Positions 1,911 through 57,007 of a stretch of DNA of 63,847 bases are shown piece after piece. A program made the translations under genes and the position numbers. Under the pieces are notes generated by a model that made no database searches, had not been told where the DNA came from, and was given only the letters and a program-made list of their open reading frames with translations. Position 1 is the first letter of the stretch. Each line of letters begins with the position of its first letter. The stretch is from Asterionella formosa (taxonomy: Eukaryota), in NCBI GenBank assembly GCA_002256025.1, contig NKIB01013138.1, positions 1 to 63,847 on the forward strand, read 5' to 3'.

Positions 1911-2020
1911 GATGAGAGGTGGGAAGAATGTGGGCTGGGCTGGGCTGGGCTGTTCCCTGTGCGTTGATTCAAAAGAACAACAGAATAGGATTGTTATTAG
2001 GGAGTCAAGAGGTATGTAGG

Positions 2021-2340
2021 TACCAGTTACCTGGTACCTGGTACCTGGTACCTGGTATGGTACCAGGTACGGTATTCCATGTTGTACCCGGTACCTGGTT
2101 CATGGTAACGGTATTCCTGCTACCAAATTGAGTCACCGGTACAGGTATACATGCTGGCACCTGGTATGCCTGGGTGAGACGAGGAGGAGGGAGTGCTTAC
2201 ACAGTAAGTAATATTCTTACCGGTAATCTACTGCCTATACTTACTACCGGTATGATATTTACAATACTGCAGTACCAGGTACCGGTATCCCACTACAGGT
2301 ACCAGGTACCAGGTACGGAACCCGACGGAGTACCAGTATG
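2021..2340. repeat. TA-CCWGG-type heptamer array in the divergent SNX/EGF intergenic region
   Basis: 2021-2074 reads TA CCAGT TA CCTGG x4 TA TGG TA CCAGG TA CGG TA; further units occur at about 2273-2317. Confidence 0.85.
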
Positions 2341-6999: not shown

Positions 7000-7570
7000 A
7001 ATCTCATCATGCATGCTTCCATCATTCTCATGTCACAATACCTTCTTTTTGTGTCATCAATACAAGCAATCAAATCTGAATTAATAAATAAACTGTTCAC
7101 AACTTTTGCTTTAATTTTTGATGTTGTTGTTTTAGTTGTCTTTCTAGTCGTTGTACCGCTGCTATGAAAAGTTTCAAATCTGTTCATAACATAGCCGTTT
7201 TGAATTGTGAATCTATAAATTACATGAAAAATGAACCATCGGCGGCTTCGATTTTCGTATTCAATATCAGTGTTATTACAATTATGCTTTCACAATTGTA
7301 TTTTCTATTCCGTGCTTAATATATGTACCCAATAGATAGCAAAGCGTCGTTCTCATTTTTCATGGAGATATTTGTTATTTTCGTCATGATCAAGGCTGAG
7401 ACGACATGATGCAGGATTCTCCAGCCACTCACGATGACTACATTGTAATCCAAAGTGTTATACTACTGGTATAAATATGCAAAAGAATCGAATAATTAAA
7501 GCTAAATAATTATGCACAAGTGCTTATGGGGGCTACCTTGGGTACCCTGAGTGTGAGTCCAGCCAGCATG
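7000..7570 (+). repeat. Dispersed repeat A, copy 1 (homologous to about 52200-52718)
   Basis: Colinear shared blocks such as AAAGCG(T/A)CGTTCTCATTTTT..GAGATATT, GGATTCTCCAGCC and GTACCCTG...TCCAGCCA. Confidence 0.7.
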
Positions 7571-7609
7571 CATCATTTGGTGTAATAAAAGTAACAGTGT
7601 ATCAAAACA

Positions 7610-7812
7610 TTTAATAGTATGCTATTATTAAAAAAATTGACCATTTTGGAGGTTGTGAAGTCGCGCTTTGGCCCCATAGGGCCTTAGACCTGCTTGTTGT
7701 CTGCCTCACCACCCAGAAGCCAACATGGGACTACATATACAAAGCAGGTGGAGAATGTGTGGTGAATCAATCCCGCCACCTCGGAATGCGAGCTAACCAA
7801 CTGCGCTTGACC
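7610..7812 (-). mobile_element. tRNA-Ala-derived SINE, copy 1
   Basis: Minus strand AGTTGGTTAGCTCGC..GAGGTGGCGGGATTGATT..CATTCTCCACC resembles the 3' half of tRNA-Ala. The 25-mer GGCAGACAACAAGCAGGTCTAAGGC is identical to the copy at about 52846. Confidence 0.75.
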
Positions 7813-8053
7813 TATGGTAGGCACCATACTAGATATAATATCTAAGATGGTATAAGTCTTACAAAACTTCAACCTTATAGGCTCTTCTATACAGACTATA
7901 TACTTGTTCTTACTCTCAACACTATAGAGACTAACAGCAATATATACAATGTAGCTCATAATACATATTGCATTATGTACCCAAAACTAGATATATGATT
8001 ACGTCATAACTATTGGTACATATGTTCCTATGGAGTTGACTTAGCAATACTAG

Positions 8054-15779: not shown

Positions 15780-16930
15780 GGTACCTGGTACCGGAACCAG
15801 GTAACAGGTACTCCAACCAGGTAGCTGATACTGTACCATTGGTACCAGGTAGCTTCCGTTATGTGCATGTACTCCCCGCATTCAGCCTCTAGAGTACATA
15901 CTTTACCAGGTACCGGTAGCTCAATTCAAGATGAACATCGGTTCCTCGAGGTACTGCTACCTGGTAGTGGTAGCCAGTAGCAGGACAATACTGTCCATGG
16001 GCTGTGCCGGAGTGTCCTAGTACTGTAGGGTACCAATACTGACTTGGTAGCAAGAAACATGCTATCTCGTTCAAGTCCTCCTTCCAACGTAACGTGACAT
16101 TCAGTTGTAGAACGGATGCCTGGTACGGAACGCTTATCAACGGATTTGCAATACCGGCACGTACCAGAAATATAAATATGCAATTAGTTTATAAAATTTA
16201 TACTCCGAGTACCTGTATGTTGAAATGCATGCATCGCTGTCTAGAAGGCCGCCTGCTGTGGAATGATGTACTCCGAGTAACAACACAAAGTTCGAAATCT
16301 AAAATATCAACGCTTTCCTCCAATCAATCGAAATGCATTTTCTTTCACAACAATGATGTACCACGTTTTACACGTCGACAAAGCCCATGCGTCAAGTGTC
16401 GTCTACGACAAAAATTCGCGTCGTAAAACCATCGTTTGTATCATCATATGTACAAGGTAACGTGTGCATGTACCGGTATCCTGTTTGTGCCAGTACTGTT
16501 AAAACTGGCACCTGGTACCTTGTACCAGGTACCGGTACATACCAGCTGCTTCTTGTGATGAGGACCGCGTATGACACTTTTGCTTACTAGGTAAGCAGTT
16601 GTTCAAGCAGTCACATCCCGGTACATAAATAGGGAGTTGATCTTGTCTTGCGTATTTTTTTCGTGTGTTGTCATCAATCCTCAATGAATTGGACTACCGG
16701 TACTGTTATCTGATATATCGACATTTAATTTACTATGCAGGTTCCTGAATTTGAAGCAATAAAATTTTTTGAGTCAGACTAGTCAAACACGTACTTTTAA
16801 GGTATAAAATAATTATGTATTACACTCACCATTGTCCTGTTACTTACATTATCATATACATATAATATTACTGGTAGACTAGTACCTGGTACCTGGTACC
16901 TGGTACCTGGTACCTGGGTATACAAGGTAT
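15780..16930. repeat. Clusters of TA-CCWGG/CCGG units (about 15780-15970, 16510-16545, and (TACCTGG)5 at 16883-16917)
   Basis: Read directly from the sequence. Confidence 0.8.
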
Positions 16931-34807: not shown

Positions 34808-35270
34808 TACCGGTTCATGGTACCGGTACCCTGGTTCCGGGTGCCAGGTACCCCGAGAACGGTATACTGGTACGAGGTACCTGGTACACTCATACGCAAG
34901 TTGCGGTAATTGTGCTGAAACTAAAGGTTTAGCTGACTTTATCGCAGATTAAAATATTAGTTAAAAGCAAAATGACCGCAACTTGCAGCCACCCTACTAC
35001 CGCCAGGTAACAGGGAGTACCAGCACTTGTCTTCGTCAGCATGGATAATCTTTGCTTCAGTGGTATTGTTTGGTTCGTCGGATCAAGGTACCTGGTACCA
35101 CGTTACCAGGTACACAAAGTACTCCATTCCCTGGCTCAGCACTTGTTCTGTACCAGTTACCAGGTACCCACCTTGTACAAAATACATTACCAGGTACCAG
35201 GTACCCGGTATCCCGTATACCTATTTATGCATTTATACTACCAGGTACCCTGGGTATCAGGTACCCTGGT
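34808..35270. repeat. TA-CCWGG-type arrays in the divergent PDT-TyrA/NOL10 intergenic region
   Basis: Units cluster at about 34808-34890 and 35088-35270. Confidence 0.8.
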
Positions 35271-40900: not shown

Positions 40901-42379
40901 ATTCCTGGTAATGACTTTGAGCTTGATATTTATTAGAATCACCTGATCAACATCAAGGGCATTGCGATGAAGCAGATCTCTTTCATCACGATTTTGCGGA
41001 AAATTCGAGTCAGACAAAGTTTCTGGATACAAAAATAAGAATAAAAAATTCACTGTTGGTTTGATTGTTCAACTTTTAGGAGAGAAAGCTTGTCACAGAA
41101 ACTGTGCCCAAGGACTTTCAATGTCAATGAGAGAGATAACTAGTAGTGTGAATGTGATCATGACAGCAAATGCGATGCTTCCATGAATGACGAGGAAAAC
41201 GAAAACAAAAGCAAAAAAGATGATAATATTAATTAAAAAGAACAAAATTCAACAGCAGCAGAGGAACAACCGTTGGTCATTGGATGCAATGACGATGATG
41301 ACGATGATCAATATGCGCGAAGATGAAGACAAAGAAATGTCCCCTCCAGTTAAAAACTGAAACAAAAGAAGACACAAAGCTAAATCAACACCCCCAGATA
41401 CTGTGACTTGAACCAACACATACTTCCGTATTATCAATCTTTACATGTGTGAGAAACATCGCAGTGATGTTTCTAAGCTAGGTCAGCCACCCAGCACCAT
41501 GGATGAACTTGATGCAAGGAGATTTCGACACAATTATATTTTCGGCAGACTTGTAGTTACATATCTTGATGATGATGATGATGACTGCAACCTCCTAGCA
41601 TTTTTCTGAAAATGAATAATGGGACAAAGTTGGAATTGCTGCTGATTATGCAAAGACATTTGATGTCTTGTCATCCAAAGAGTTTTTCATGGTCATGGCG
41701 TACATCAGCCATCGCTCAGTATCAACTGGCTTATTGTTGAAACAACAAGAAATCAGGAAGCCATGATGATTTTGTTAACTTTGTTACTTGGGTCCCATCC
41801 CTTCATATATTACTACCATCTTGGTTGTGCCAGGCCCCTCACTTGCTAAACTTTGCTGTACCATTGTTGCCTTCATATGCCTTTCATGAGAGCACTGAAA
41901 CTGATTTCCATGAGATTATTGTTAGCTAGTACTGCCCCAACATTATCATCAAAATCTTCAAGCAAGAACTTAAGTTTTAAGAAAAGGAAGTCATGCAATA
42001 TTGAAACCAAATCGGTCATCCTCTGTTGAAAAATTGTGAATGTATTGGATTCATTTGAAAGAAATGCTGCTAAACTACAAATGTTACAGTCTACATGTGT
42101 ACCAGCAACGATGTTTATCTCGATGTTCTAGAAAAGTATATGGTTCGACTTAAAAACTTGCACTGGAAGAATTGGAAGAACTGGAAAATAAGGATTGTGA
42201 TTCTTCAAGTTCTGACATTGTCCTTGTTTGGAAATTGCGCTGTGTAAGATAAAACGTGATCAGGTCTTTGCTCCATCATCCCAAGGCGAAACATTGAAAT
42301 TGTGAAGAAGCCAATTCATCGATCTATTCTTTAATCTATAAAAATTTACCAAATGCTACATTAAGCTTATCTCGTGCTG

Positions 42380-43900
42380 TTCCATTCTTCTCATCTCAAC
42401 ATTAGCTGGTGGTCGTTGCTAACACCTCTTACAAATCCGTTCAACAATAACATTTTGAATCACAGAGCTGCCAGGCATTTTATCCAATTTCTCCACAGTT
42501 ATTGGTAAACATAACCAACTAAGAGGAGAATTTGGTGCTGGGATGATTTCTGTTAAGATCTGCTGAATGTCATCTGTCGGACCAGTTTCAGTTGACCATG
42601 ACATATCTTAATCAAATATCTTTTCATCGATGACATCGGGCTCATTCTTCTAGAGTTTTTGCTGTTGTTTCCAAGCCAGTTGCTTGTTAATATCTTTTCA
42701 GAATAACCCATTTCTTCTGTAACAAGAAACCAAATGCCATTTCTATCCTGATCCTTTGCTGTGAAAGTAAGAAATTGTAGACATCCTATGAACAGTCATC
42801 GCTCTGGGAACCAAAAAATGGAACTAACATGACATCCAAAGAAGTTATTTAAATTTTTAAGTACATTAAAGCTATGCAATACTCGCACTAGCTGGTGCCC
42901 ACTTGAATGGAAACAATTGCTTAGTACCAGTTTTATTTTTCCAAACAGTACAATAGGATCTGTCTCTTCATCAGCCTCAACCCCCCCAGAACCCTAGGGA
43001 CTACATAAAAGAAATACAGGTGAAGAATACAGTAATCGAACACCCCATGAGGTGTGCTAACCAATTAAGGAGCCATTCCCCTGGAACTAACATTATTTCT
43101 GACAATGTGTTTGCAGCATTAACAACAAGATAGAAAGCTGTATCAAACGATGAAATTCGGTTGGGTAGGGAAGTTCTCTCGAATGCAACTTGGTTGCTGC
43201 ATTTTCCAGGAACAATTACACCAAAGAGAATAAATCTACTCTCGACATCATATCCTGCCTGAACATTGATCCCACAAGTCATGTAATGGCCTGAATAAAA
43301 AGCCCCAGGATTTTTTCCACTGTCACATACTGCTAGCACGCGGTGGCTTATTGTTGTGGCTGGCTAGAAAACCATCAATGGCACTGACACACCATCTGAT
43401 CAACAATTATGTTTTATTTTCTTCAAAGGCTGTAGCCAATTTGATCAATTCACTCCTTGTTTTGTCAGGGAAAACAATCTTGACATCTTCACAGTGGTGA
43501 AGCATAGCATCAAATAATAGATCTTGGCATCTATATATTGAACCAATGCTTCATCCATAGGCATGTCAAATATCGATGTAGCTGCCTCCAGCCAGCCAAC
43601 CATCAAATGCTAATGGCCAACACATTTTTTGGATAGATTGGCTCAGCTGAGCCACAGCACATGGAATAATTTCCTGTAGCCTCACACTCTCTAGTAAGGA
43701 AACAAATTTGTTGAAAGCTCGAAGGGGCATTCTATATGTCTTCTCAAAAGCGTCCTCATGATCGAGCTTCTTGAGATGAGAGTACCATGAGATTCTATCA
43801 TGCTGTCATGTGGCTTTCGTTTTGTCAGTCTCTTCCGTTTTCCAAAGATCCAGCTATGGCAAAGGAGGAAGAGTTTGTTGCTCCTTTTGTCATCATTGTT
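42380..43900 (-). pseudogene. Harbinger (DDE_Tnp_4) transposase pseudogene interrupted by a SINE
   Basis: FEKTYRMPLRAFNKF, WLAGGSYIDI, CVSAIDG, FYSGHY..GINVQA, MLVP, YNFLLSQQRIRIEMAFG..KW.IL. Confidence 0.85.
42831..43081 (-). mobile_element. tRNA-Ala-derived SINE, copy 3, 251 bp with a 12-bp TSD
   Basis: TGGAACTAACAT is duplicated at 42819-42830 and 43082-43093. The insert starts GGGGAAT, has an A-box-like TTGGTTAGC, a B-box-like GTTCGATT and the acceptor complement ATTCTTCACC. Confidence 0.85.
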
Positions 43901-44269
43901 ATCAATGAAATTGGAATCATCATCTTTCACTCAGATAATGATGGTCCTCTTCATCATTGAGCAGTGACGACATGATTGATTGATTTATATTTAAAATTTA
44001 TGTTGCAGACCAGCCAAACTACCAGTACATATCCCGGCAATCTATACACTATATCGAATACATGTGATAGTTTTCCTACAAGTTTTCAGTACTACCGGTA
44101 GTTACCTATCAAAAGAGTCTGGAGGAAAAAACACATGATTGCAGCCAGAAAATTTGTGATTTTTGGCTGATACAAAATGGTTTTTTCTCATGTGGAGAAT
44201 GAATATCTTCAGTTTAAATTGAGTAGCTTTTGTATGATACTTTTTCAAATATTATGATACCAAATCATG

Positions 44270-46280
44270 CTGCATGCATTTTTTCGCTTCGTTTCCTCTT
44301 TCATTTGAATTGTGCTTTATAGGCTCCATGGTCACTTCGTCGCTTTTCTTTTTGTCTCCAGAAGGATTCTTGCAGTGCTGACATCTGAAATCCACATTGC
44401 TTGTACACATTCCTTGTGTATTGTGTTGCTCCTTGTGTATGTTGCCCAGCAACCGAAGCCACTCGATATTGAAGGCCTCCAGATCCCGCAAACACCTTGT
44501 TTTTTGGACATCGTCGTGACACTGCATTGTTCATTGCCTCATTAATCTGCGTGTCAAAGGGATGATGCAATGATAGTAGCTTTTCGCCTTCGACTTTCGT
44601 TGCAACATGCAGCATTAACCATTCGTATAAATCTTTTTCCTTTTCCAGCTTGTCATGATATTTTCCGTTACTAGTAACCAGTTTTCCTGCTTTTTCAGGG
44701 CACCATGTCTCAGAGCAGTAATCATGGCAGCCAAATAAATAAATGATTGGTGCCTTGGAGGAAATACTGAATTCGACCAGAGAGATGTTCCGGTTTTTTT
44801 AATCCAAGCGCCATAGTAAAATTTCAACCGACGCTCGAGGGAGACTGGGCCATCGGATTTCATAAAAGCTGGGTGGAGAAGGACCCGTACTCTGTGGGAT
44901 GGGTCAGACAGAAATGTAGTTTTGGTTACAGTCAGTGGAAGGCATCCTTTGTCCGATTTTTTTAATCCTTTCAATGTTCTTGGCCGTTGGAAGGATGGCT
45001 GTATTTTCATTAACTCCTTATAGGACCACTTAGAGACAGCTCGAATAGTAGAATCATCATCACAGATGATTGTAGAATAGATAACATTGTTTTTCATTAC
45101 TGCAAAAATCATCATTTCCACACCAGCATCTGGTTCCATTGCTTTCGAACTACCAGTTACATGATTCTTGGGACAAACATGTTCCTTGATTGGTTTCTTG
45201 TACCGTATAGCCCTGTTGCACACATTACAGACCTTAGATTTCACTCTGTAGTCTAGTATCTTTTTCGTGAAGCCGCCAATACAAAAAGCATGTCCACTTA
45301 CAGAGTTGTACTTATTCCTGCTCGACCGCTGCTGCCAGCCCATATCGAAACTAACAGTGAGTCAAGGCATATTCAGTACAGACAAGCGATCCGTACCAGT
45401 CAGACTGTTCCACCACTGAAAATCACGTCCTTTGTCAGCCCAGTCTCCTCGTTCATGCACATTGAGTGTCAGATATATTTCCTCCTGACATGCCTCTTTC
45501 ATTGCAAGAGCGGTTGCAGTAACTTCAGCGTTTCCTACCAGTTCCTCTACTGCACCAAAGTTACCTTGCTTGCGTAGACCAAAATCCAAAGGTACTAGTA
45601 CATGGAAGATTCATTGCGGAGCAGATGATATCTGCATCTGCTGGTCCCATTTCGGCTTTGTGACAACCCAAAATAAACTGTTTGTTGATAGAAAAGTGTT
45701 TTGCTTCTATTGCGTTATTTCTTATCTCATCATTTCTGTCTCCATTGCTGTTGCTTCTTGCAGGTTCGAGTTTAGAAATCAGTTTCTGACAGGCCAAACA
45801 AGAGACTTTGAATTCGCTTGCCAAGCCGTAATTTTTGGTAGAGACAACAATCAACGGGTGTTTCATTGTTGAAATCGGAAAGTCAAGCACATCCTGCTCC
45901 AGAAATAATTCACATTGCTGTTCAATGGATAGCTTTTGTTGTCTATTTGATGTACAGTAAGTTACAAAGTCACGAAGTGATTGTTTGCAATATTCTTTTA
46001 CAAATTTATTAACACAACTTTTGCAATACATATCTTCCTGCAGAAATTTCGACAATGTATTATAGTCGATTATATGATTCATGTTCATTTGAGAGCAGTC
46101 TGTTTTAATTGGTGACGATGAGATTGCTAGTTCAATTGGTGAAGTGGTTGTTGTAGGGGGACAAAAAGGCATCTTAGAGGTCCACCAATTTTGATTTTCA
46201 TCGGACACTATATTTCGTCCTCCTTGACCAGCACCAACAGCAATTTCGGAAATGAGACGGCTACCACTGGAACATGGCAT
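44270..46280 (-). pseudogene. Kolobok-type ('Mutator-like' domain) DDE transposase, frameshifted
   Basis: VSFDMGWQQR..NSVSG, CNVC..HVCPKNH..GSSKAME, ICDDDS, DPSHRV, TQINEAMN..CPK. Confidence 0.8.
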
Positions 46281-46485
46281 GATTTTGTCTTATAATAGTT
46301 GGTGTTGCTTTTTTATGGCTGGTTGATTCGTTAGATTGTGTAAAAATAAAAATATATTTGTCATTCATGCCACCTCACTTCTAGAAGGTTTTGAAACATT
46401 GTATGTAGGTGGATTGAAGTTCTTGATTTCCTAATGAAATAAATAAAAATCATAAAAGCGCTAATCACTAATAGATTTAGAACAT

Positions 46486-46905
46486 TTAGAATGTTTGGAA
46501 GTTGGTTTGAAACCAGTGTACCCTTGCTTCGTTTGGGTCCTTGTTCTTCAAAAGAGATCGAACCCCCTTCAAACAACAGCCAGGAAGTTGCATCCAAACA
46601 CCTTTTCCCAATGGACCACTGAAAACTCTGATTAGAAACTTGTACAGAAGATTGCGGGCTCTTGATGCCGTATCATCTTCATCCTTCAACCTGGTAAGAA
46701 TGGATTCACCTTCCAGAAACTTCTCCACCAACTCTTCGACTTTATCCCATCGGCACTGACATTCAGGGCAGCAAAAATCGCAGCATTCGCAGAAGATGTG
46801 ATCCTCACATCCCTCCACATACAACTCTACAATCAACTGGTCTTGGCAGGTAGGATGCACAACTTTCATGACTGTAGTTAAATTCGTCATTCCCATTGTC
46901 ATCAT
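46486..46905 (-). CDS. KolX-like protein (P2X7 ballast / Cys-rich zinc-binding domain-like) of the Kolobok element; probably decayed
   Basis: Cys cluster plus RNLLYKFLIRVFSGPLGKGVWMQLPGCCLKGVRSL; directly upstream of the transposase on the same strand. Confidence 0.65.
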   Translation of the reverse strand: MMTMGMTNLTTVMKVVHPTCQDQLIVELYVEGCEDHIFCECCDFCCPECQCRWDKVEELVEKFLEGESILTRLKDEDDTASRARNLLYKFLIRVFSGPLGKGVWMQLPGCCLKGVRSLLKNKDPNEARVHWFQTNFQTF

Positions 46906-47713
46906 TTTGATGTGTAATTTCGCTCATGGTTGATTGTTGCTTTTTTGTTTCTTACCGGTAGTCATCAACAATATTTGCCATGCTGCCAGCTTGTCTGACA
47001 CATATATTTTGACTTATGATAGGGTATATAAACATTGATCGATGGAGAATGTTTATGTAAATATTTATTGAATTTGAAAAGGAATCTATGTTTGTATGCT
47101 CAAATTTCCAGTGATTCAAATATTTCAAATGGAATCATGTCATTCAAAATTAACTCATAAAAATTCTTAGTTCCATGGAATTTCGGCAACCCTAAGCAAT
47201 ATATTTTTTTTTAATTTTTGCCTAGGGGATCAAATGCAGGAACCATAAACAACATTGATGAACAAAGTGAGGAAAGTCCATATCACTTGCATGTATCTCT
47301 CATTTGTAAAACACCATATGTTGACTTGATGTAGCCAGTAGAACAACAGCATGAAAAGCTCAAAATATCGTTGACGTTTTGCGTATAATTACCAGTACAT
47401 GTACCCATGTAAACATCCAACATGCATGCACGTATATAAAGTAATGATCAAATGAAGTTAAAATATGTCTACCTACAGCGTTGAATATGAAAAATATAAT
47501 TGATCACCCTCGGTCTGTTTCTTTTTCACCGTAGACCCTCCTTGTCTCCCAACGCTTGACCGTGGACTAACGAGGTCGGCGTGCGTAAAATCCTGCGAAA
47601 GACAACTTTGGCCCCTCGCCTCCAAAATAAAAAAACCGCAGAAGACTTCACTCCCTCGCTTGCCGTCTCGTGACTCGTCGATTGCTGTTGTTGGTGTTGG
47701 ACACTCTGCAACC

Positions 47714-50700
47714 ATGGCTTCGCAAGCAAGGGGACTACAGAACTTTATCTCTGACCTGAGAAATGCAAAAAGCAAGGTGAGCTAGAAAATCGATGGTTGA
47801 AATAAGCAGATGATGATCATCATTGTGAACACCGAGGGGCTTGTTGGCCTGGCAGTCTTGGGATCCATTGTCGGAGTATTTTTTGGGAATGTGTCTAAGT
47901 AGGAATCGCGGACACATCATTACTCCATCAGATTTCTCTAAATAATTGTATGTCTGCGAGATTTCTGGTTTTTCGATGAGCAAGCCTCTGCAGCGGATTA
48001 ATTGTGTTACTGGCCCGAACAGCGCTCTGTTGTTTGCCAATGTTGCCTTAATATGACGCTTACTAGACAGATTGCTAATTCGTTCTGCTCTACATGCGTC
48101 TGTTCTTGACAGGAAGAAGAAACTCGTCGTGTTGACAGAGAGCTTGCCAATATCCGAAAAAAGTTTACTCCAACCACGACAAAACTCGGCGAAGATGGCG
48201 AGAACCCTGCTCTTTCTTCTTATCAAAGGAAGAAGTACGTTTGGAAACTAGTCTACATTCATGTGCTTGGCTACGATGTCGATTTTGGGCATCCTGAGGT
48301 CCTTTCTTTGGTTCGGTCACCCAAATATACCGAGAAACATGTTGGATATACGGCACTAAGTCTTTTGCTTCGAGGCGATGATCCTCTGACCAACAACATT
48401 GTGAGCACCCTTCGTAAAGATTTGACTACCCCAGGAAATACAGGAAGAGGGAATCCAAATGTAACAGCAGATGCAGCGCAATCACTTGCCTTATGCTCGA
48501 TTGCCAACATGTCTGGCCTTGAGCTGATCCAGGCACTGCACCCCGAAGTTCAGCATATCCTTGTTTCGAAAACGTCTACTCCTAACGTGAAGAAGAAGGC
48601 TGCTCTTTGTCTTCTTCGCCTTGTGAGAACTAGCCCCAACCTTGTTGCTGGTCGAGAGTTTGCGCCTCATGTTGCTCAACTCTTGCAGGACCGACACCTC
48701 GGAGTTTTGACTAGTGCCATGAGTTTATTGAACGGATTGGCCTCTCAGCATACATCAGAATACGAAAGTCTGATCCCATACGTTGTCCATATTTTGGGAA
48801 TGCTTGTACTGAAGAAGGCTTGTGCTAGAGAATATCTGTATTACCGTACCCCTAGTCCTTGGCTTCAAATCAAGTTGCTGAAGTTTTTGCAACTATATCC
48901 TCATGCCATTTCACCGTCGACCGAGAATGGTCACGGAAATAATGCTGCTTCCGTGAAAGCCTACGTGTCTCAACTGACAAGTGTAGTTTCGAAGATTTTG
49001 ACGGAAACAGATGTTTCTGACTCAATTAACAAGTCCAACGCCGACCACGCGGTTCTGTTTGAATCCGTTAATCTCATTGTCGTTTGGGGTTCTGTGGGGC
49101 CGGCACAACTGCGTGATGGAGCAATGAAGCTTTTAGGAAAATTCATCTCTGTGCGCGAACCAAATATTCGTTACCTTGGATTGATGACTATGGCCAAATT
49201 AGCTCAGTTGGATGGTAGTGCCGAGAGCATTAAGAAACATCAGGCTACTGTTCTGGTTTCCCTTAAAGACGCCGATATCAGCGTCAGACGTCGTGCTCTT
49301 GATCTTCTATTTGTCATGTGTGATACTGACAATGCCGAGCGAATTGTCGACGAACTTGTCGCTCACCTTGTTTTGGCCGATGCTGCTATCCGCGAGGAAA
49401 TGGTTCTTAAGATTGCTATCCTCGCTGAAAAGTACGCCACCGATCTTCGTTGGTATGTAGATACAATCTTGAAGCTCATCTCGATAAGTGGGGACCACGT
49501 AAGTGATGCAATCTGGCATCGTGTTGTTCAGATTGTTACCAATCACCCTCAAGGAGACTTGCAGGCATATGCCGCAGCCACACTCCTTGTTGCCGCCAGT
49601 CCGCGTCGTTGTCATGAGACTGCTGTCCGTGTTGCTGCCTATGTTCTTGGAGAATTTGGTTTTTTAATTGCAGAAAGGCCCGGCATGAGCGGAGAGGAGC
49701 AGTTCCGAATTTTACACCAGCATTGGGCTACTTCCGATACTCAAACTCGAGCCATTCTTACCAGTACATACGCCAAGCTCGCCAACCTTTACGAAGAATG
49801 CCGGCCACTTGTTGCACCCGTCTTTGCTCGCTGCAAGAACAGTGTAGATGTCGAGGTACAGCAACGTGCAGCCGAGTATGCATCAATGCGTGAAGCCTTC
49901 AGCCCCGAAGCCGTGGAAGATCTACTTCGCGAGATGCCACCTTTCGAAGACAGAAAACAATCTGCGCTTGAGCAACGTTTGAAGGAGAAAGAGGGCGACG
50001 ATAGCGCTGCTGTCATTAAAGCAACTAGACCCAGTCCTGCACAGAGACAACGAGCAGCTCAGAGTGCTGCCGCTGCCAGAGCCGCGGAAGAAGCTGCGAT
50101 GGCTGCTCAACAAAATAGCACTGCCCCTGAGGCTGACATTGCCGTTCCAGACGAACCCGAGCTCGGTAAGTTATCGAACCCGGAGAGATGCTGAATGTAA
50201 TCCCCGAATAATTTCGTCCTAACTCTTTTGCTTGCGTTTCAGAATCTGCAGTCGAACCGTCCCCATCCAAGGGCAAGAGCTCCACAGGTGGTCCAAAAGT
50301 TGCAATTCCCAAGGAGGTTATCCCAGCTATGAGAAAGGCCTTTTCCAACCTTTGCACCTCACCTTCTGGTGTTTTGTTTGAGAATGCTTTGCTTCAGGTA
50401 GGAGTGAAACATGAATATGTTGGTGCGCAGGGACGAATCTCTGTTTTTTTTGGAAACGTTAGCGAGAGAAATGCAAACACTCCACTACATCATTTCAGAG
50501 TTGCTGTTGACGAGGTTGACCACTTGCGGATCCAAAAACAAGGCACACAAGGACTTCTTGACGATGATGAAGATGGTGGATGTACTGTAGCTGTTAGGAC
50601 TCAAGCAAAGCTACTATTGCTTGTTGAGGTAACAGCTCCTTTCGACGATGCGCCTGCTATGCGAGTTATGTTCGAAACTGAGGATGGCTCGAGACACGAG

Positions 50701-51129
50701 TATCCTCTTCGACTTCCCGTCGTTGCTACTTGCTTTATGGAACCAGTTACCCTTGAACCAGCTGCCTTTATGCAACGGTGGAAAAGTCTAGAAGGTCAAG
50801 ATCGCGAGTGCCAAGAAGTGGTGAAGGCACCAGCTGGTGCACCACCGCTTGATGAGGAATACATGAATCGTATTGCGCATATCATCACGGACGGACTGAA
50901 GTTTGGGCGTTGCTCAGGTTGTGATCCAACGCCATGGACTGTGTCCGGAGCAGCAACTTTTCGCACCGGAGCAAAGGATTTGAATGGTAACAATATCAAT
51001 GTTGGATGTCTCGTGAGAGTAGAAGCCAATCCACAAGCAGGAGCTTTCAGGGTCACGACAAGAACTCTTCATCCATTGTGCTCAAAAGCTGTCAAGAATG
51101 TGGCGCTTGTGAGTATTAAATTGGCCTGA
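47714..51129 (+). CDS. AP2A: AP-2 complex alpha adaptin; exons 47714-47776, 48113-50165, 50243-51129, about 1000 aa
   Basis: RGLQNFISDLRN, ELANIRKKF, YVWKLVYIHVLGYDVDFGH, PWLQIKLL, EPNIRYLGL, EVQQRAAEY, plus an appendage domain. GT-AG introns keep the frame. Confidence 0.93.
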
Positions 51130-52199
51130 GAGTTTTTTCTTATCATTTTCGTCAACAGCTATGTCGTTTGTAAGTATGAATATTCTCCGCTGTAAATGGG
51201 ACAATCGATGACAGAAGAACCTATGTGGAACCCCTTGGTTTTCTATGATAATCTTACTAAATTTAGAGAACTTTCTTGAGACTTAACAGACATTAGTTTG
51301 CATTAATTTATGAAAGGCGATCTTGTCAACCTCGGGAGCACAACTGATACTCAGTAATGTTCATGTGGGGTCTACTCACACCTGCATTCAGAGAGAGGAC
51401 CCTATTTAAGATGATTAAGAAAATCATGAGGGAAGGTATTGATGCATTCAAGATGAACTTATGCATTCTGGCCACTATAATCATTCATATCCACCATACA
51501 AAGCATGAAGTCTATTACAGCCCAACTTTTTGTTTATAAAACTTTTGTACCCTTGCAAGATGGCTATACTCAAGGGTAAACAGCATGAGTAGGCTTAATG
51601 CTAGGCAGGAGTGAACTTTTCTAAATTGCCTTGAAAAAGGGAATTATGAATGGGCTATAAAACAGATTATCATTATTCAATGGTAAACAGTTTTAAAAAA
51701 TTACTTTCTTTTGTTGACTGATATAGCAAGATTGTGTCAACACATAATCACTCAACCATAACCACAGTTACATCCTCCTGGGATTCAGACAAATTCGCTA
51801 ACTCTGAGTTTGGCGGACTGTTAAATTCAGATAACAAGGAAAAACAGATTCTGACAAATTGTAATTTCGCGTTAAAATACTCAGGGACTATTTTAGTTTA
51901 AGCAAATGAAGTCTAGCACTTTAAACAAAATTTTGCTTAACTAGAGAAATAAATTCCTTAATTCATTTGTACATCCTGCCTACGGTATGTTACTATAGCA
52001 GGAAATTGAGTTTCTGATAGTACCAGTACACTCCTGTCGGCACATAGCTTGCCAAGTATAGACCAGGTTTCATGTGTAGCGGTACATAGGAATGGGCTGC
52101 TGCACATTACTAAAACTATAGGGCAATACCGGTAGTTCTGACAGAATACCGGAGTGCATTACATTTGTCAGCTTCCATGAGGACTGCATACAAATTGCC

Positions 52200-52718
52200 A
52201 ATTTGCAATCAATCAAGTAGGTAATAACCTTTTTTCACATCCTTTGTTTCGGTTATTCATGTTACTGGCTGCTGTGGTCGTAGTCTTAGTTGTTGTGTAG
52301 TTAAAATAAAAGTGTTGTATCTGGTTGTAGCATCATCATTTAAAAATTGCGCATCTCTGAATTACAGGAAAAAATATGCCAATGGCGACTTCAAATTTCG
52401 TTGTCAATATTGATGTTATAAGGATTATTCTTTTACAATTGTACTTACTTTATTATGTTTGATATATTCATCAAATAGGAAAGCGACGTTCTCATTTTTT
52501 ATCGAGATATTCGCTATTTTCATCAATGTCAACGCTGCAATCACATGATGATGATGGATTCTCCAGCCGATTGCAACTGCGACTACTGCTGCACTATATT
52601 TTATTCTATATTGGAAAGAATAGCATTATTTCAGCCAAATATCTATATTCCAGAGCAAATGCGTGCTATCTCAGGTACTAGCTACTTAGTACCCTGCGCA
52701 AGAATCCAGCCATACATG
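52200..52718 (+). repeat. Dispersed repeat A, copy 2
   Basis: Homologous to about 7000-7570. Confidence 0.7.
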
Positions 52719-52739
52719 TAATATATATACCATAAACTT

Positions 52740-52945
52740 ATGTAGCTTAGTTGGTTAGCTTACCTTCCAAGGTGGCAGGTTCGATTCCCGCATTATCCAC
52801 TACCTGCTTTGTTTATGTAGCAGTCCCTAGGGTTTTGGGGTGTGTGGCAGACAACAAGCAGGTCTAAGGCTCTCTGGCGGGCCAAGTGCGACTTCACAAC
52901 CTCCACAATGTCGAGTTCTTTAACAATAGCTTACTATAAAATTTA
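52740..52945 (+). mobile_element. tRNA-Ala-derived SINE, copy 2
   Basis: A box TAGCTTAGTTGG at 52743, B box GGTTCGATTCCC at 52778; body aligns with copies 1 and 3. Confidence 0.8.
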
Positions 52946-52963
52946 CTTAACATTTATTCATGG

Positions 52964-53653
52964 CACTGTAAACCTTTTAATATCTCCACGTGATTTTCGG
53001 GATTTGTGGAGCACGCTTATTTATGTAAAAAATGGTTGTGGAGTTCTTGTGAAACTCTAACCCTACTCCGCCCAAATCTAGGGGTAAGGGCTAGGTTTCG
53101 CAATATCAGCGGACACCAAAATAAATATCAAAAGACACTACCCAAATAATTATTTAGCATGTATACAAATTTAGCTGCCTTTTATATCAACAGACATGTT
53201 ATACAAGGGCTAAACCAAGCAGAACAAAATTTTGATGGTGTATGTCCACAATACATATGATACTATGATAAAAATATTGCAGTTAATAAACTCTATAATT
53301 TGTATTTGTACCAGTATTACCCCCAGTGCATCAAATTACATTACCGTTATACTAGCTAAGTTGGTAAAGTTTCTAATATGTATGGCCTACTATGTTGTAA
53401 TATGAAACAGATACATGAATCATTACAGGATCATGGTGAGACAAAAACATGCAATGGATACTGTACTAGTTCCTTTGCATATATCATGTGATGTCACCAT
53501 GTAAACCTACAGCATCATCACACATGTAAAAAACTCACTTCATGTGGAGATATTAAGATTGGCTGGACCCCCAATGTGGAGTGACTAATGATGTGGAGGA
53601 AGGTTCATGTGGAGTTATTATACTATCTGTGGAGATATTAAGAGGTTACAGTA
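52964..53653. mobile_element. 690-bp non-autonomous TIR element with a CACTG terminus (CACTA/CMC-like)
   Basis: Left CACTGTAAACCTTTTAATATCTCCAC versus right reverse complement TACTGTAACCTCTTAATATCTCCAC; subterminal TGTGGAG repeats; flanks TGG/TGC. Confidence 0.7.
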
Positions 53654-56105: not shown

Positions 56106-56416
56106 GCTGACCGATGGCAAGGGAGGCATCACAGAGTGCGAGCTGTGTCATTTTCATTTGTTTACTTTTTTCGCGACCATCTGCCGATGCTCTTGCTTTA
56201 TCATTGATGTTGAGGCATATCATTTTATTTCATGTTCCATTTTCTGTACCGGTAGTATCATTTGTGCGAACAGTGGAAAAACAGTATGCTTTGTATGCTG
56301 CCCCAGCTGGTTGAAAATCCTTCTCGCAAGAAGGAACAATTTTTGCCTCGTCAGTTTCTGTTGTATATCCATAAAAGTTTTTGATCATAATTTCCCTTAT
56401 CATCAGTTAATTCAAC

Positions 56417-57007
56417 ATGAAGTCTGTTCTCATCGCCTCCCTCGTCGCCTCCGCTGCGGCCTTTGCCCCTGCCAAGCAGGCAGCGACGACATCAGCCATG
56501 AGTATGTCCTTCGAGAGCGAGCTTGGTGCACAAGCCCCGCTTGGATTCTTCGACCCTCTCGGCATGGTTACTGACGGTGACCAGGACAAGTTCGACCGCC
56601 TCCGTTACGTCGAGATCAAGCACGGACGTATCTCCATGCTCGCCGTTGTTGGTTATCTTGTTACTGAGGCCGGAATTCGTCTTCCTGGTGACATTGACTA
56701 TTCTGGTACTACCTTCGCTTCTATCCCTGGAGGTTTCGGTGCCATCGATACCATCTCTTCAGGTGGAATCGCCCAGATTGTTGCCTTCATTGGATTCCTT
56801 GAGCTTGCGGTCATGAAAGACATCACTGGAGGAGAGTTTGTCGGTGATTTCCGTAACGGCGCTATTGACTTTGGCTGGGACACTTTTGACGCTGAGACAC
56901 AACTTTCAAAGCGTGCCATCGAACTTAACCAAGGTCGTGCTGCTCAAATGGGAATCCTTGCTCTCATGGTCCACGAGAAGCTCGGAGTCTCACTCATCCC
57001 CAACTAA
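56417..57007 (+). CDS. Lhcf: Fucoxanthin-chlorophyll a/c binding protein (Lhcf family), plastid precursor
   Basis: ASAAAFAP presequence, FESELGAQAPLGFFDPLG, EIKHGRISMLA, ELNQGRAAQMG. Confidence 0.97.
   Translation: MKSVLIASLVASAAAFAPAKQAATTSAMSMSFESELGAQAPLGFFDPLGMVTDGDQDKFDRLRYVEIKHGRISMLAVVGYLVTEAGIRLPGDIDYSGTTFASIPGGFGAIDTISSGGIAQIVAFIGFLELAVMKDITGGEFVGDFRNGAIDFGWDTFDAETQLSKRAIELNQGRAAQMGILALMVHEKLGVSLIPN

What the first reader, a model, noticed from the sequence alone, without database searches (positions are those of the whole stretch)
42819..43093. tRNA-Ala-derived SINE family in a diatom; a 12-bp TSD marks one copy as an insertion (three copies in the window)
Seen: a 251-bp insert splits the Harbinger transposase at MLVP and duplicates TGGAACTAACAT perfectly. 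It begins GGGGAAT and has A/B-box-like motifs and the acceptor complement ATTCTTCACC. Homologs lie at 7610-7812 (-) and 52740-52945 (+); copy 1 keeps GAGGTGGCGGGAT..CATTCTCCA. Known: a tRNA head, a long TSD and no ORF are SINE hallmarks, and GGGGAAT/ATTCTCCA is the eukaryotic tRNA-Ala acceptor stem. Inference: this is a Pol III SINE family with a truncated anticodon arm. To my knowledge diatom SINEs are barely characterised, so it may be undescribed. Copy 3 has a different 3' half from copies 1 and 2, suggesting subfamilies with swapped tails.
Basis: partly seen in the sequence, partly recalled or inferred. Interest (0 to 1): 0.8.

Follow-up and report, generated by a model that had tools for sequence, protein, structure and literature searches.

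The report
tRNA-like SINE family in a diatom
A 251-base mobile element with a decayed alanine-tRNA-like front end has pasted itself into a dead transposase gene of a freshwater diatom; it is an ordinary kind of retroposon (a SINE), of a sort barely described in diatoms.

Summary
A 251-bp insert (42831-43081, element on the - strand) sits between two perfect copies of TGGAACTAACAT. It cuts a decayed PIF/Harbinger (DDE_Tnp_4) transposase frame exactly at MLVP. Without the insert and one repeat copy, the frame is collinear with an intact homologue, P0121.

Two related copies exist (about 7602-7825 -, 52728-52954 +). The front 60-70 bases are tRNA-related and closest to tRNA-Ala, with gaps in the D and anticodon arms. 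ARAGORN and the Rfam searches (E up to 10) report no tRNA at any copy.

The insert has no terminal inverted repeats and no LTR-type ends. Contigs of three DNA runs from different studies show both tail types repeated many times. The host is a diatom.

Best reading: a tRNA-derived SINE family with two tail types (confidence about 0.7). One detail needs correcting: the odd tail belongs to the insert with the duplication, not to 52740-52945.

Not shown: Pol III transcription, a LINE partner, or duplications at other copies. No genome is held for this window. This is a new member of a known kind, of moderate interest.

The parts
42819..42830 (.). Target-site duplication, copy at the element's 3' side (TGGAACTAACAT; encodes MLVP on the - strand)
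   Evidence: 12 nt, 100%; MLVP frame
43082..43093 (.). Target-site duplication, copy at the element's 5' side
   Evidence: the last four codons of the upstream transposase piece align to P0121 residues 136-139
42831..43081 (-). Copy 2: complete 251-bp SINE-like insert
   Evidence: Bounded by the duplication. None of the 4 inverted pairs listed joins its two ends. Related to copies 1 and 3 over its first ~114 bases.
43021..43081 (-). Copy 2 tRNA-like head (element bases 1-61): GGGGAAT pairs with ATTCTTC, including a G3-T70 wobble, followed by A. The B-box-like GTTCGATTAC lies at 43032-43041 and a degenerate A-box region at 43061-43075.
   Evidence: letters; an 8-9 bp terminal stem in the fold, no cloverleaf; alignment to two phage tRNA-Ala genes; Ala is the best of 33 tRNAs, narrowly: 14 vs 13
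42968..43020 (-). Copy 2 middle part shared with copies 1 and 3 (TATGTAG..TCCCTAGGGTTCTGGGG..GAGGC); it can form a hairpin
   Evidence: shared up to 42968; a hairpin appears in all three folds, but the energy is not better than shuffles
42831..42967 (-). Copy 2 tail (137 bases), unrelated to the tail of copies 1 and 3; not poly(A); ends GGATGTC
   Evidence: It is itself repeated: 13 contigs of run X1, 2 of X2 and 1 of X3 cover 42917 with the same 4-base gap (table 4).
7602..7825 (-). Copy 1: older copy of the other-tail subfamily. Keeps GAGGTGGCGGGATTGATTCACC and ATTCTCCA. No duplication found.
   Evidence: nhmmer 7825-7602; no flanking repeat of 7 bases or more; Ala best, 21 vs 12
52728..52954 (+). 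Copy 3: best-preserved head. Exact A-box TAGCTTAGTTGG at 52743-52754 and exact B-box GGTTCGATTCC at 52778-52788. Same tail as copy 1. The family's 3' end lies at about 52950.
   Evidence: (hits annotated phage tRNA-Ala genes, E 4e-3). table 7 (22 contigs of X1 run on unlike after 52950).
42690..43805 (-). Host of copy 2: decayed PIF/Harbinger-type transposase frame (DDE_Tnp_4) with in-frame stops
   Evidence: PF13359, E 4.9e-4, 20.2 bits, below the 24.8 cut-off, profile 12-92 of 158. (252 homologues at E<=1e-3). (4 of 4 homologues tested carry DDE_Tnp_4 above the cut-off). (11 stops in 137 codons after the insert).

Best explanation
The insert is one copy of a family of short, non-coding retroposons (SINEs) of a freshwater pennate-type diatom.

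**Anatomy**
- The 5' end is a decayed copy of a tRNA, most like tRNA-Ala, that has lost about 9 bases of the D and anticodon arms.
- Next comes a shared ~50-base middle part that can form a hairpin.
- Last comes one of at least two unrelated tails: the tail of copy 2, or the tail of copies 1 and 3.

**Proposed mechanism**
- The RNA is copied into DNA at a staggered chromosomal break by the reverse transcriptase and endonuclease of a non-LTR (LINE-type) element that recognises the tail. Two tails would mean two partners or two epochs.
- Repair of the 12-base stagger gives the duplication.

**Shown:** the precise insertion with a 12-bp duplication, the element starting exactly at tRNA position 1, the tRNA-Ala likeness, the absence of inverted or LTR-type ends, and the multi-copy state of both tails.

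**Inferred:** Pol III transcription, the RNA intermediate and the LINE partner.
For: 1. **Precise insertion.** A perfect 12-bp duplication and collinearity of the split transposase with P0121: residues ..139 | 11 codons | 151...
2. **Boundary.** The element begins exactly with the acceptor-like GGGGAAT. Its partner ATTCTTC lies 46 bases on, gives 7 of 7 pairs including G3-T70, and is followed by A.
3. **Promoter-like boxes.** Copy 3 has exact A- and B-box consensus words 35 bases apart. It holds the only exact B-box match in the window; at up to 1 mismatch there were 12 matches against 7.1 expected. The consensus words were recalled.
4. **Direct tRNA hits.** The copy 3 head hits annotated phage tRNA genes in 2.3 Gb. 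The best are tRNA-Ala: 90.6% over 32 bases (E 4e-3) and 72% over bases 8-66 (E 0.6).
5. **Isotype test.** Against 33 of the 36 annotated tRNAs of one phage, tRNA-Ala is best for all three heads (21 vs 12; 28 vs 17; 14 vs 13). The three-head profile gives Ala 25.4 bits (E 1.4e-8) against 7.1 bits for the next.
6. **Truncated arms.** Alignment A2 places 3- and 6-base gaps in the D and anticodon arms.
7. **Ends.** No terminal inverted repeat, and no match to the Mutator or Harbinger DNA of the window.
8. **Family.**
   - Three copies lie in three contexts in 64 kb.
   - In laid contigs, 86, 32 and 44 contigs of X1, X2 and X3 carry the same variant at 52878. 13, 2 and 1 contigs carry a 4-base gap at 42917.
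   - 22 X1 contigs diverge with unlike flanks after 52950.
   - Summed depth in the element bins of X1 is 63,696-98,125, against 594-1,372 over the adaptin gene. The tool warns that depth is not copy number.
Against: - ARAGORN finds no tRNA in the window.
- The Rfam searches report no tRNA match at E up to 10 at any of the three copies. The only related hit is a T-arm-like match at E 1.9.
- None of the heads folds as a cloverleaf or better than shuffles.
- Only 1 of 3 heads hits tRNA genes directly. For copy 2 the Ala preference is marginal (14 vs 13). The phage was chosen because its tRNA-Ala hit copy 3, and it is a bacterial-type tRNA set without Thr.
- Only 1 of 3 copies has a duplication.
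- No poly(A) or simple-repeat tail.
- Copy 2 has a TTTT run at element bases 74-77, which could stop Pol III.
- No reverse transcriptase or LINE was found in 58 of the 99 ORFs of 100 aa or more that were scanned. The other 41 were not scanned.
- Copies 1 and 3 both abut the same second repeat. Their independence as insertions is therefore not shown.
Confidence: 0.7

Rival explanations
1. It is a retroposed element, but not a classical LINE-dependent Pol III SINE. It could be a chimeric or read-through retrocopy of a tRNA-like RNA. Alternatively, it could be a non-autonomous element copied by another reverse transcriptase, such as a Penelope-like or other non-LINE element; I recall that such elements also leave duplications of variable length.
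For: The 12-bp duplication and the absence of inverted ends fit any target-primed reverse transcription. There is no poly(A) tail and no LINE in the window. Copy 2 has an internal TTTT. Its A box is degenerate.
Against: The tail of copy 2 is itself multi-copy (13, 2 and 1 contigs with the same 4-base gap). The head plus middle part recurs with another tail. This points to a family rather than a one-off chimera. No ribozyme or other known RNA motif was hit.
Confidence: 0.14
2. It is a non-autonomous DNA transposon, for example a Mutator-type element without long inverted ends. Its long duplication would come from a staggered transposase cut, and its tRNA-like stretch would be captured or coincidental.
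For: Mutator-like and Harbinger transposases are present, and the Mutator-like repeat is extremely abundant here. From recall, Mutator elements make the longest duplications among DNA transposons (9-11 bp).
Against: None of the 4 inverted pairs listed joins the two ends of the insert. There is no similarity to the Mutator or Harbinger DNA in the window. Twelve bases is longer than the usual Mutator duplication, and Harbinger makes 3 (recalled values). The element starts exactly at tRNA position 1.
Confidence: 0.07
3. It is not a mobile element. The 12-base repeat would be a chance or slippage product, and the three look-alikes would be relics of tRNA genes or pseudogenes.
For: 12-mers repeated at a spacing of 100-600 are expected about 2.8 times per window by chance. 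The heads are not recognised as tRNAs.
Against: Removal of the insert restores an exact, in-frame, residue-by-residue collinear transposase. The shared part extends ~50 bases beyond the tRNA-like part. Dozens of contigs carry the family in three DNA runs.
Confidence: 0.03

Closest known systems
tRNA-derived SINEs in general (class described in Kramerov and Vassetzky 2011, seen here only as a citation)
   Same: Short and non-coding. A 5' head related to a tRNA with A- and B-box words, a body, a family-specific tail, a flanking duplication of more than 10 bases, and many dispersed copies.
   Different: The head lacks about 9 bases of the D and anticodon arms and is missed by tRNA finders. There is no A-rich or simple-repeat tail. 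The partner LINE is unknown.
infSINE families of the oomycete Phytophthora infestans (passages read in PMC3429519; Whisson et al. 2005 seen only as a reference)
   Same: SINEs in another stramenopile. They are low-copy (32 copies of infSINEm) and are thought to use an internal Pol III promoter.
   Different: The lineage differs (diatom against oomycete). Expression is not shown for the present family.
'Putative SINE' calls in diatom genome annotations: Phaeodactylum tricornutum Phatr3 (13 elements, 1,454 bp; passages) and Cyclotella cryptica (passages)
   Same: The same host group and the same claimed class.
   Different: Those are outputs of automatic repeat classifiers, with no head, tail or duplication described in the passages read. 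Their supplements were not opened. Here one insertion is resolved to the base.
AfuSINE2 tRNA-related SINEs of Aspergillus fumigatus (abstract start in the listing, PMC5063351)
   Same: tRNA-related SINE families in a microbial eukaryote, with duplications of 4-14 bp. The 12 bp seen here falls in that range.
   Different: An unrelated host. No sequence comparison was made.

Membership tests
tRNA-derived SINE | Short (under ~600 bp) and without coding capacity | tested here: met
   251 bp (copy 2) and ~225 bp (copies 1, 3). Only stop-to-stop frames cross it, and none has a family match.
tRNA-derived SINE | 5' head related in sequence to a tRNA, with A and B promoter boxes in the right order | tested here: met
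   The copy 3 head hits annotated tRNA-Ala genes (E 4e-3). The head profile matches tRNA-Ala at 25.4 bits against 7.1 for the next of 33 tRNAs. Copy 3 has exact A and B words 35 bases apart. The boxes are degenerate in copies 1 and 2.
tRNA-derived SINE | Head still recognisable to tRNA models (not defining, but usual for young families) | tested here: not met
   ARAGORN found 0 genes. The Rfam searches report no tRNA match at E up to 10 at the three copies. No cloverleaf in the folds.
tRNA-derived SINE | Flanking target-site duplications that differ in length and sequence between copies | tested here: inconclusive
   1 of 3 window copies has a duplication (12 bp). None of 7 bases or more was found at copies 1 and 3. 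No genome is held for a census.
tRNA-derived SINE | Many dispersed copies | tested here: met
   3 copies in 3 contexts. 86, 32 and 44 contigs carry one variant at 52878, and 13, 2 and 1 contigs cover the copy 2 tail, in three DNA runs of different studies. 22 X1 contigs have unlike flanks after 52950.
tRNA-derived SINE | 3' tail that is A-rich, a simple repeat, or shared with a partner LINE | tested here: inconclusive
   No poly(A) or simple repeat. Neither tail recurs elsewhere in the window. No reverse transcriptase among the 58 of 99 ORFs scanned. A LINE elsewhere in the genome could not be searched.
tRNA-derived SINE | Transcription by RNA polymerase III | not testable with these tools
   Only contigs of one RNA run were laid. 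Depth over the family is 28-228, and the tool warns that this does not show transcription.
MITE / non-autonomous DNA transposon (Mutator, Harbinger) | Terminal inverted repeats and a duplication of the superfamily's fixed length | tested here: not met
   No inverted pair joins the two ends. The 12-bp duplication compares with 3 for Harbinger and 9-11 for Mutator (recalled values). No similarity to either transposon in the window.
Solo LTR / TRIM | TG..CA ends and a 4-6 bp duplication (recalled definition) | tested here: not met
   On the - strand it runs GGGG...GTC. On the + strand it runs GACA...CCCC. The duplication is 12 bp.
Functional tRNA-Ala gene | Complete cloverleaf with anticodon, detected by tRNA models | tested here: not met
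   The alignment shows the anticodon loop and part of the D stem missing.

The most novel reading that the evidence does not exclude
A modular diatom SINE superfamily. One tRNA-Ala-derived head and a conserved hairpin core are joined to at least two interchangeable tails, which would recruit different reverse-transcriptase partners. The family would have been active recently, given the perfect 12-bp duplication inside a dead transposon. It would also prefer to insert at the AT-rich end of a second repeat: copies 1 and 3 both lie ~55 bp from the same end of repeat B, in opposite orientations.
Probability: 0.3. Interest if true: 0.55.

Novelty: new member of a known kind. Interest (0 to 1): 0.42.

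Why it matters
SINEs were long thought to be missing from most unicellular eukaryotes. In the diatom papers I read, they appear only as 'putative SINE' lines in automatic repeat tables (passages). A base-resolved insertion with a tRNA-Ala-like head would give diatom genome annotators a real seed sequence. It would also give a marker system for strain and population studies of a common freshwater diatom; the window was found in runs of 13 studies. And it would point to an as yet unidentified reverse-transcriptase partner. It does not change what is known about how SINEs work.

Tried and rejected
- **Whole genome.** None is held, so no copy census, no tally of duplications and no comparison with the organism's own tRNA-Ala.
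- **Earlier notes of this scan.** Nothing by place, sequence or words.
- **Public collections.**
  - Two pattern scans of metagenome contigs gave 0 matches.
  - Two scans of prokaryote genome contigs gave 0 and 15 matches.
  - Two scans of viral contigs gave 0 and 5 matches.
  - By my own rough estimate, the 15 prokaryote matches are about what an 18-mer gives by chance in 596 Gb. With nhmmer, the 20 matching loci match the family profile over at most about 40 positions around the 18-mer, at E 0.004 or worse. I rejected them as chance.
- **tRNA finders.** ARAGORN at default found 0. At 90% thresholds it made 2 calls, neither at a copy. At 70% it made 236 calls, which is noise. No Rfam match reached a gathering score in the window.
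- **Other Rfam matches.** A weak SNORD14 match to the copy 2 tail (16.3 bits against a gathering score of 64, E 1.5) lacks C and D boxes by my reading. I treat it as chance.
- **Folding.** No fold is better than shuffles (z from +0.2 to +1.2 for head plus middle, -1.3 to +0.7 for heads). I make no structural claim.
- **Duplications at copies 1 and 3.** Nothing of 7 bases or more at the boundaries.
- **Empty site.** None of the 15 joints listed spans 42830 to 43082, and 243 further joints were not shown. Presence/absence polymorphism therefore cannot be judged.
- **RNA.** The contigs of run X13 touch the family, but Harbinger bins read 0 and the tool warns of DNA carry-over. This is no evidence of expression either way.
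- **The short piece after the insert.** The 32 residues alone gave no Pfam hit. Homology was shown by BLASTP to P0121 instead.
- **Mutator ends.** No convincing terminal inverted repeats of the neighbouring Mutator-like repeat.
- **Known SINE core domains (CORE, V, Deu, Meta and the like).** Not compared, because no reference sequences are available in the tools.
Full report
**What is there**

Window bases 42819-42830 and 43082-43093 are the same 12 letters, TGGAACTAACAT. The 251 bases between them, read on the - strand, begin GGGGAATGGCTCC and end TTTGGATGTC.

The - strand frame 43363->43082 ends ...SEIMLVP. The letters after the second repeat copy continue MLVPFFGSQSDDCS*DVYNFLLSQQRIRIEMAFG....

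A 12-base direct repeat is not rare by itself. The window has about 10 loci (20 groups) with repeats of 12 or more bases at a spacing of 100-600. First-order Markov simulations gave 2.8 pairs on average (30 simulations, maximum 6). The argument therefore rests on what the insert interrupts.

**The interrupted gene**

- The upstream piece (94 aa) matches Pfam DDE_Tnp_4 only weakly: E 4.9e-4, 20.2 bits, below the 24.8 cut-off. The match stops at profile position 92 of 158, at the insert.
- A search of 1.84 billion representative proteins found 252 relatives at E<=1e-3 and 16 at E<=1e-10. The best was P0121 (E 2.6e-25, 63% identity).
- Four of four relatives tested carry DDE_Tnp_4 above the cut-off. 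This is the PIF/Harbinger-type transposase domain.
- P0121 aligns to the upstream piece up to its residue 139, the P of MLVP. It aligns to the piece after the first in-frame stop from its residue 151.
- The window has 11 codons (FFGSQSDDCS*) where P0121 has 11 residues (FTGAQRANKTK).

Removing the insert and one repeat copy thus restores a collinear, in-frame gene. The 12 bases are a true target-site duplication. The transposase itself is dead, with 11 stops in the 137 codons after the insert.

**The family in the window**

- BLASTN finds two relatives. 7609-7802 (-) and 52749-52942 (+) are 79.4% identical over 199 bases (E 1e-40). The insert matches 52746-52840 at 71% over 97 bases (E 2e-5).
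- A profile of the two outer copies finds the insert at E 1.4e-7 over 43069-42968 only, and nothing else in the window below E 1.
- The three copies share a head and a ~50-base middle part. The two outer copies share a ~100-base tail, and the insert has a different 137-base tail. The deviant tail belongs to the insert, not to 52740-52945.
- No flanking repeat of 7 bases or more was found at the boundaries of copies 1 and 3.

**Is the head a tRNA?**

Evidence against:
- ARAGORN finds no tRNA in the window. Relaxed thresholds give only noise.
- No Rfam match reaches a gathering score.
- With E up to 10 on each copy, the Rfam searches report no tRNA match. There is only a T-arm-like hit in copy 3 at E 1.9.
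- No head folds as a cloverleaf or better than shuffles.

Evidence for:
- Copy 3 has exact matches to the recalled A-box and B-box words, 35 bases apart. It holds the only exact B-box match in the window.
- Its head hits annotated tRNA genes among 50,697 phage genomes. The best are tRNA-Ala: 90.6% over 32 bases (E 4e-3), and 72% over bases 8-66 of 71 (E 0.6). tRNA-Met and tRNA-Cys follow.
- The heads of copies 1 and 2 gave no tRNA hits on their own, so 1 of 3 heads hits directly.
- In an alignment with two phage tRNA-Ala genes, the heads lack 3 bases of the D stem and 6 bases of the anticodon loop and stem.
- Against 33 of the 36 annotated tRNAs of one phage (19 isotypes, no Thr), tRNA-Ala scores best for each head: 21 vs 12, 28 vs 17 and 14 vs 13. 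A profile of the three heads gives Ala 25.4 bits (E 1.4e-8) against 7.1 bits for the next.
- In copy 2, GGGGAAT pairs with ATTCTTC at all 7 positions, including G3-T70. Copy 1 keeps ATTCTCCA. From recall, G3-U70 is the alanine identity pair.

Caveats: the phage was picked because its tRNA-Ala hit copy 3. Its tRNAs are of bacterial type. For copy 2 the margin is one point.

My reading is that this is a decayed tRNA-Ala-like head with shortened D and anticodon arms.

**What it is not**

- None of the four inverted pairs listed in 42780-43130 joins the two ends of the insert.
- The ends are not TG..CA.
- The insert has no similarity to the Harbinger or Mutator-like DNA beside it.
- From recall, 12 bases is longer than the duplications of either superfamily.
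- No reverse transcriptase or endonuclease domain was found in the 58 of 99 ORFs of 100 aa or more that I scanned. The 41 left out mostly overlap longer ORFs. A partner is therefore not in view.

**Copies elsewhere**

- No genome is held, and scans of public contig collections gave nothing usable.
- The stretch 42301-52300 is held by runs of 13 studies, labelled algae, freshwater or lake-water metagenomes.
- I laid the contigs of three DNA runs from different studies (X1, possibly the source sample; X2; X3) and one RNA run (X13) on 42300-53200 at 80% likeness.
- Over the single-copy adaptin gene, X1 reads 594-1,372. Over the bin holding most of copy 2 it reads 63,696. That bin also holds Harbinger DNA. 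Over copy 3 it reads 65,498-98,125. The tool warns that summed depth is not copy number.
- More telling is the number of distinct contigs.
  - At 52878 the same variant is carried by 86, 32 and 44 contigs of X1, X2 and X3.
  - At 52836 the counts are 33, 13 and 14.
  - At 42917, in the copy 2 tail, 13, 2 and 1 contigs share a 4-base gap.
- After 52950, 22 contigs of X1 run on with unlike letters (agreement 0.54). This marks the 3' end of that subfamily.
- Two X1 contigs skip 52794-52856 or 52801-52854, so some members lack the middle part.
- No joint across the copy 2 insert is among the 15 listed, and 243 were not shown. An empty site can be neither claimed nor denied.
- RNA contigs touch the family (bins 28-228). 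Under the tool's own warning this does not show transcription.

**Host**

- The window's NOL10/ENP2-like protein has, among named relatives, only diatoms. These are Cylindrotheca, Fistulifera, Nitzschia, Pseudo-nitzschia, Mayamaea, Epithemia and a truncated 'Staur...' MMETSP label, at 56-60% identity. Closer hits, at 81%, are unnamed.
- A chlorophyll a/b-binding-family gene (PF00504) lies at 56411-57004.

**Mechanism**

The best-supported reading is a tRNA-derived SINE family.
- Shown: the insertion, its 12-bp duplication, the start at tRNA position 1, the tRNA-Ala likeness, the absence of inverted or LTR ends, and the multi-copy state of two tail types.
- Inferred from what is known of SINEs: transcription by Pol III from the internal boxes, and target-primed reverse transcription by a LINE-type partner that recognises the tail.
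- If that is right, the first nick fell between ...AACAT and TATTTC on the window's + strand, and the second fell 12 bases away, next to a T6 run. This too is inference.
- Weak points: one duplication only, no A-rich tail, a TTTT at element bases 74-77 of copy 2, and no partner found.

**Unexplained**

Copies 1 and 3 each lie about 55 bases beyond the same end of a second non-coding repeat. That repeat spans 7203-7545 and 52345-52678, at 73% identity over 228 bases plus 69% over 64 bases. The two copies are in opposite orientations relative to it, and the flanks beyond them are not alike (score 22 against a shuffle mean of 20.6). A fixed composite element does not fit. A shared AT-rich target, or insertion into the other repeat's tail, might.

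**Comparison and novelty**

- The element works like any tRNA-derived SINE.
- In stramenopiles, SINE families are described in Phytophthora infestans (passages).
- In diatoms I found only 'putative SINE' lines: 13 elements totalling 1,454 bp in P. tricornutum, and classifier output in C. cryptica (passages; supplements not opened).
- Four full-text searches found no paper in the top listings that describes a diatom SINE's structure. Searches held 383, 6, 143 and 95 papers respectively. I read the top 20, 5, 12 and 15 listings only.
- Dfam, Repbase and SINEBase could not be consulted.
- I rate it a new member of a known kind, of moderate interest.

Noticed in passing
window 7203-7545 and 52345-52678 (+): A second non-coding repeat (73% identity over 228 bases plus 69% over 64 bases) ends ~55 bases from copies 1 and 3 of the tRNA-like element. 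The element is inverted at one locus. This suggests a shared target or an insertion hotspot rather than one composite unit.
   Followed up: partly
window 44120-47395: Mutator-like transposase remnants (PF20700; E 2.6e-31 and 9.4e-7) lie in a repeat whose laid contig depth is 4e5-8e5 in run X1, against ~600-1,400 for the neighbouring single-copy gene. One RNA contig ends in a run of A at 45038.
   Followed up: partly
window 42826-42932 (-): The tail of the insert gives a weak end-to-end Rfam match to snoRNA SNORD14/U14 (16.3 bits, gathering score 64, E 1.5). It shares CUUCUUUGGAUGUC but has no C or D box. Probably chance.
   Followed up: no
window 53353-53364 (+): A third exact A-box-like word (TAGCTAAGTTGG) lies 400 bases after copy 3, with no B box after it. 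It could be a head fragment or chance.
   Followed up: no
window 51626: A sharp repeat boundary: 85, 41 and 45 contigs of three DNA runs match from 51626 onward but differ before it. The whole stretch 51400-53200 is repetitive.
   Followed up: no
window 43018-43020, 7746-7748, 52798-52805: In all three copies the acceptor-like 3' strand and discriminator A are followed by CC, with two extra bases in copy 3. It looks as if part of a CCA end had been copied, which would point to a processed tRNA or a CCA-encoding gene as parent.
   Followed up: no
window 2019-2074, 16882-16917, 34812-34853: Short GGTACCT / GTACCTG 7-base microsatellites recur at three places.
   Followed up: no
window 53000-53640: Short motifs containing TGTGGAG (for example ATGTGGAGATATTAAGA twice) recur in the repetitive DNA after copy 3.
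   Followed up: no
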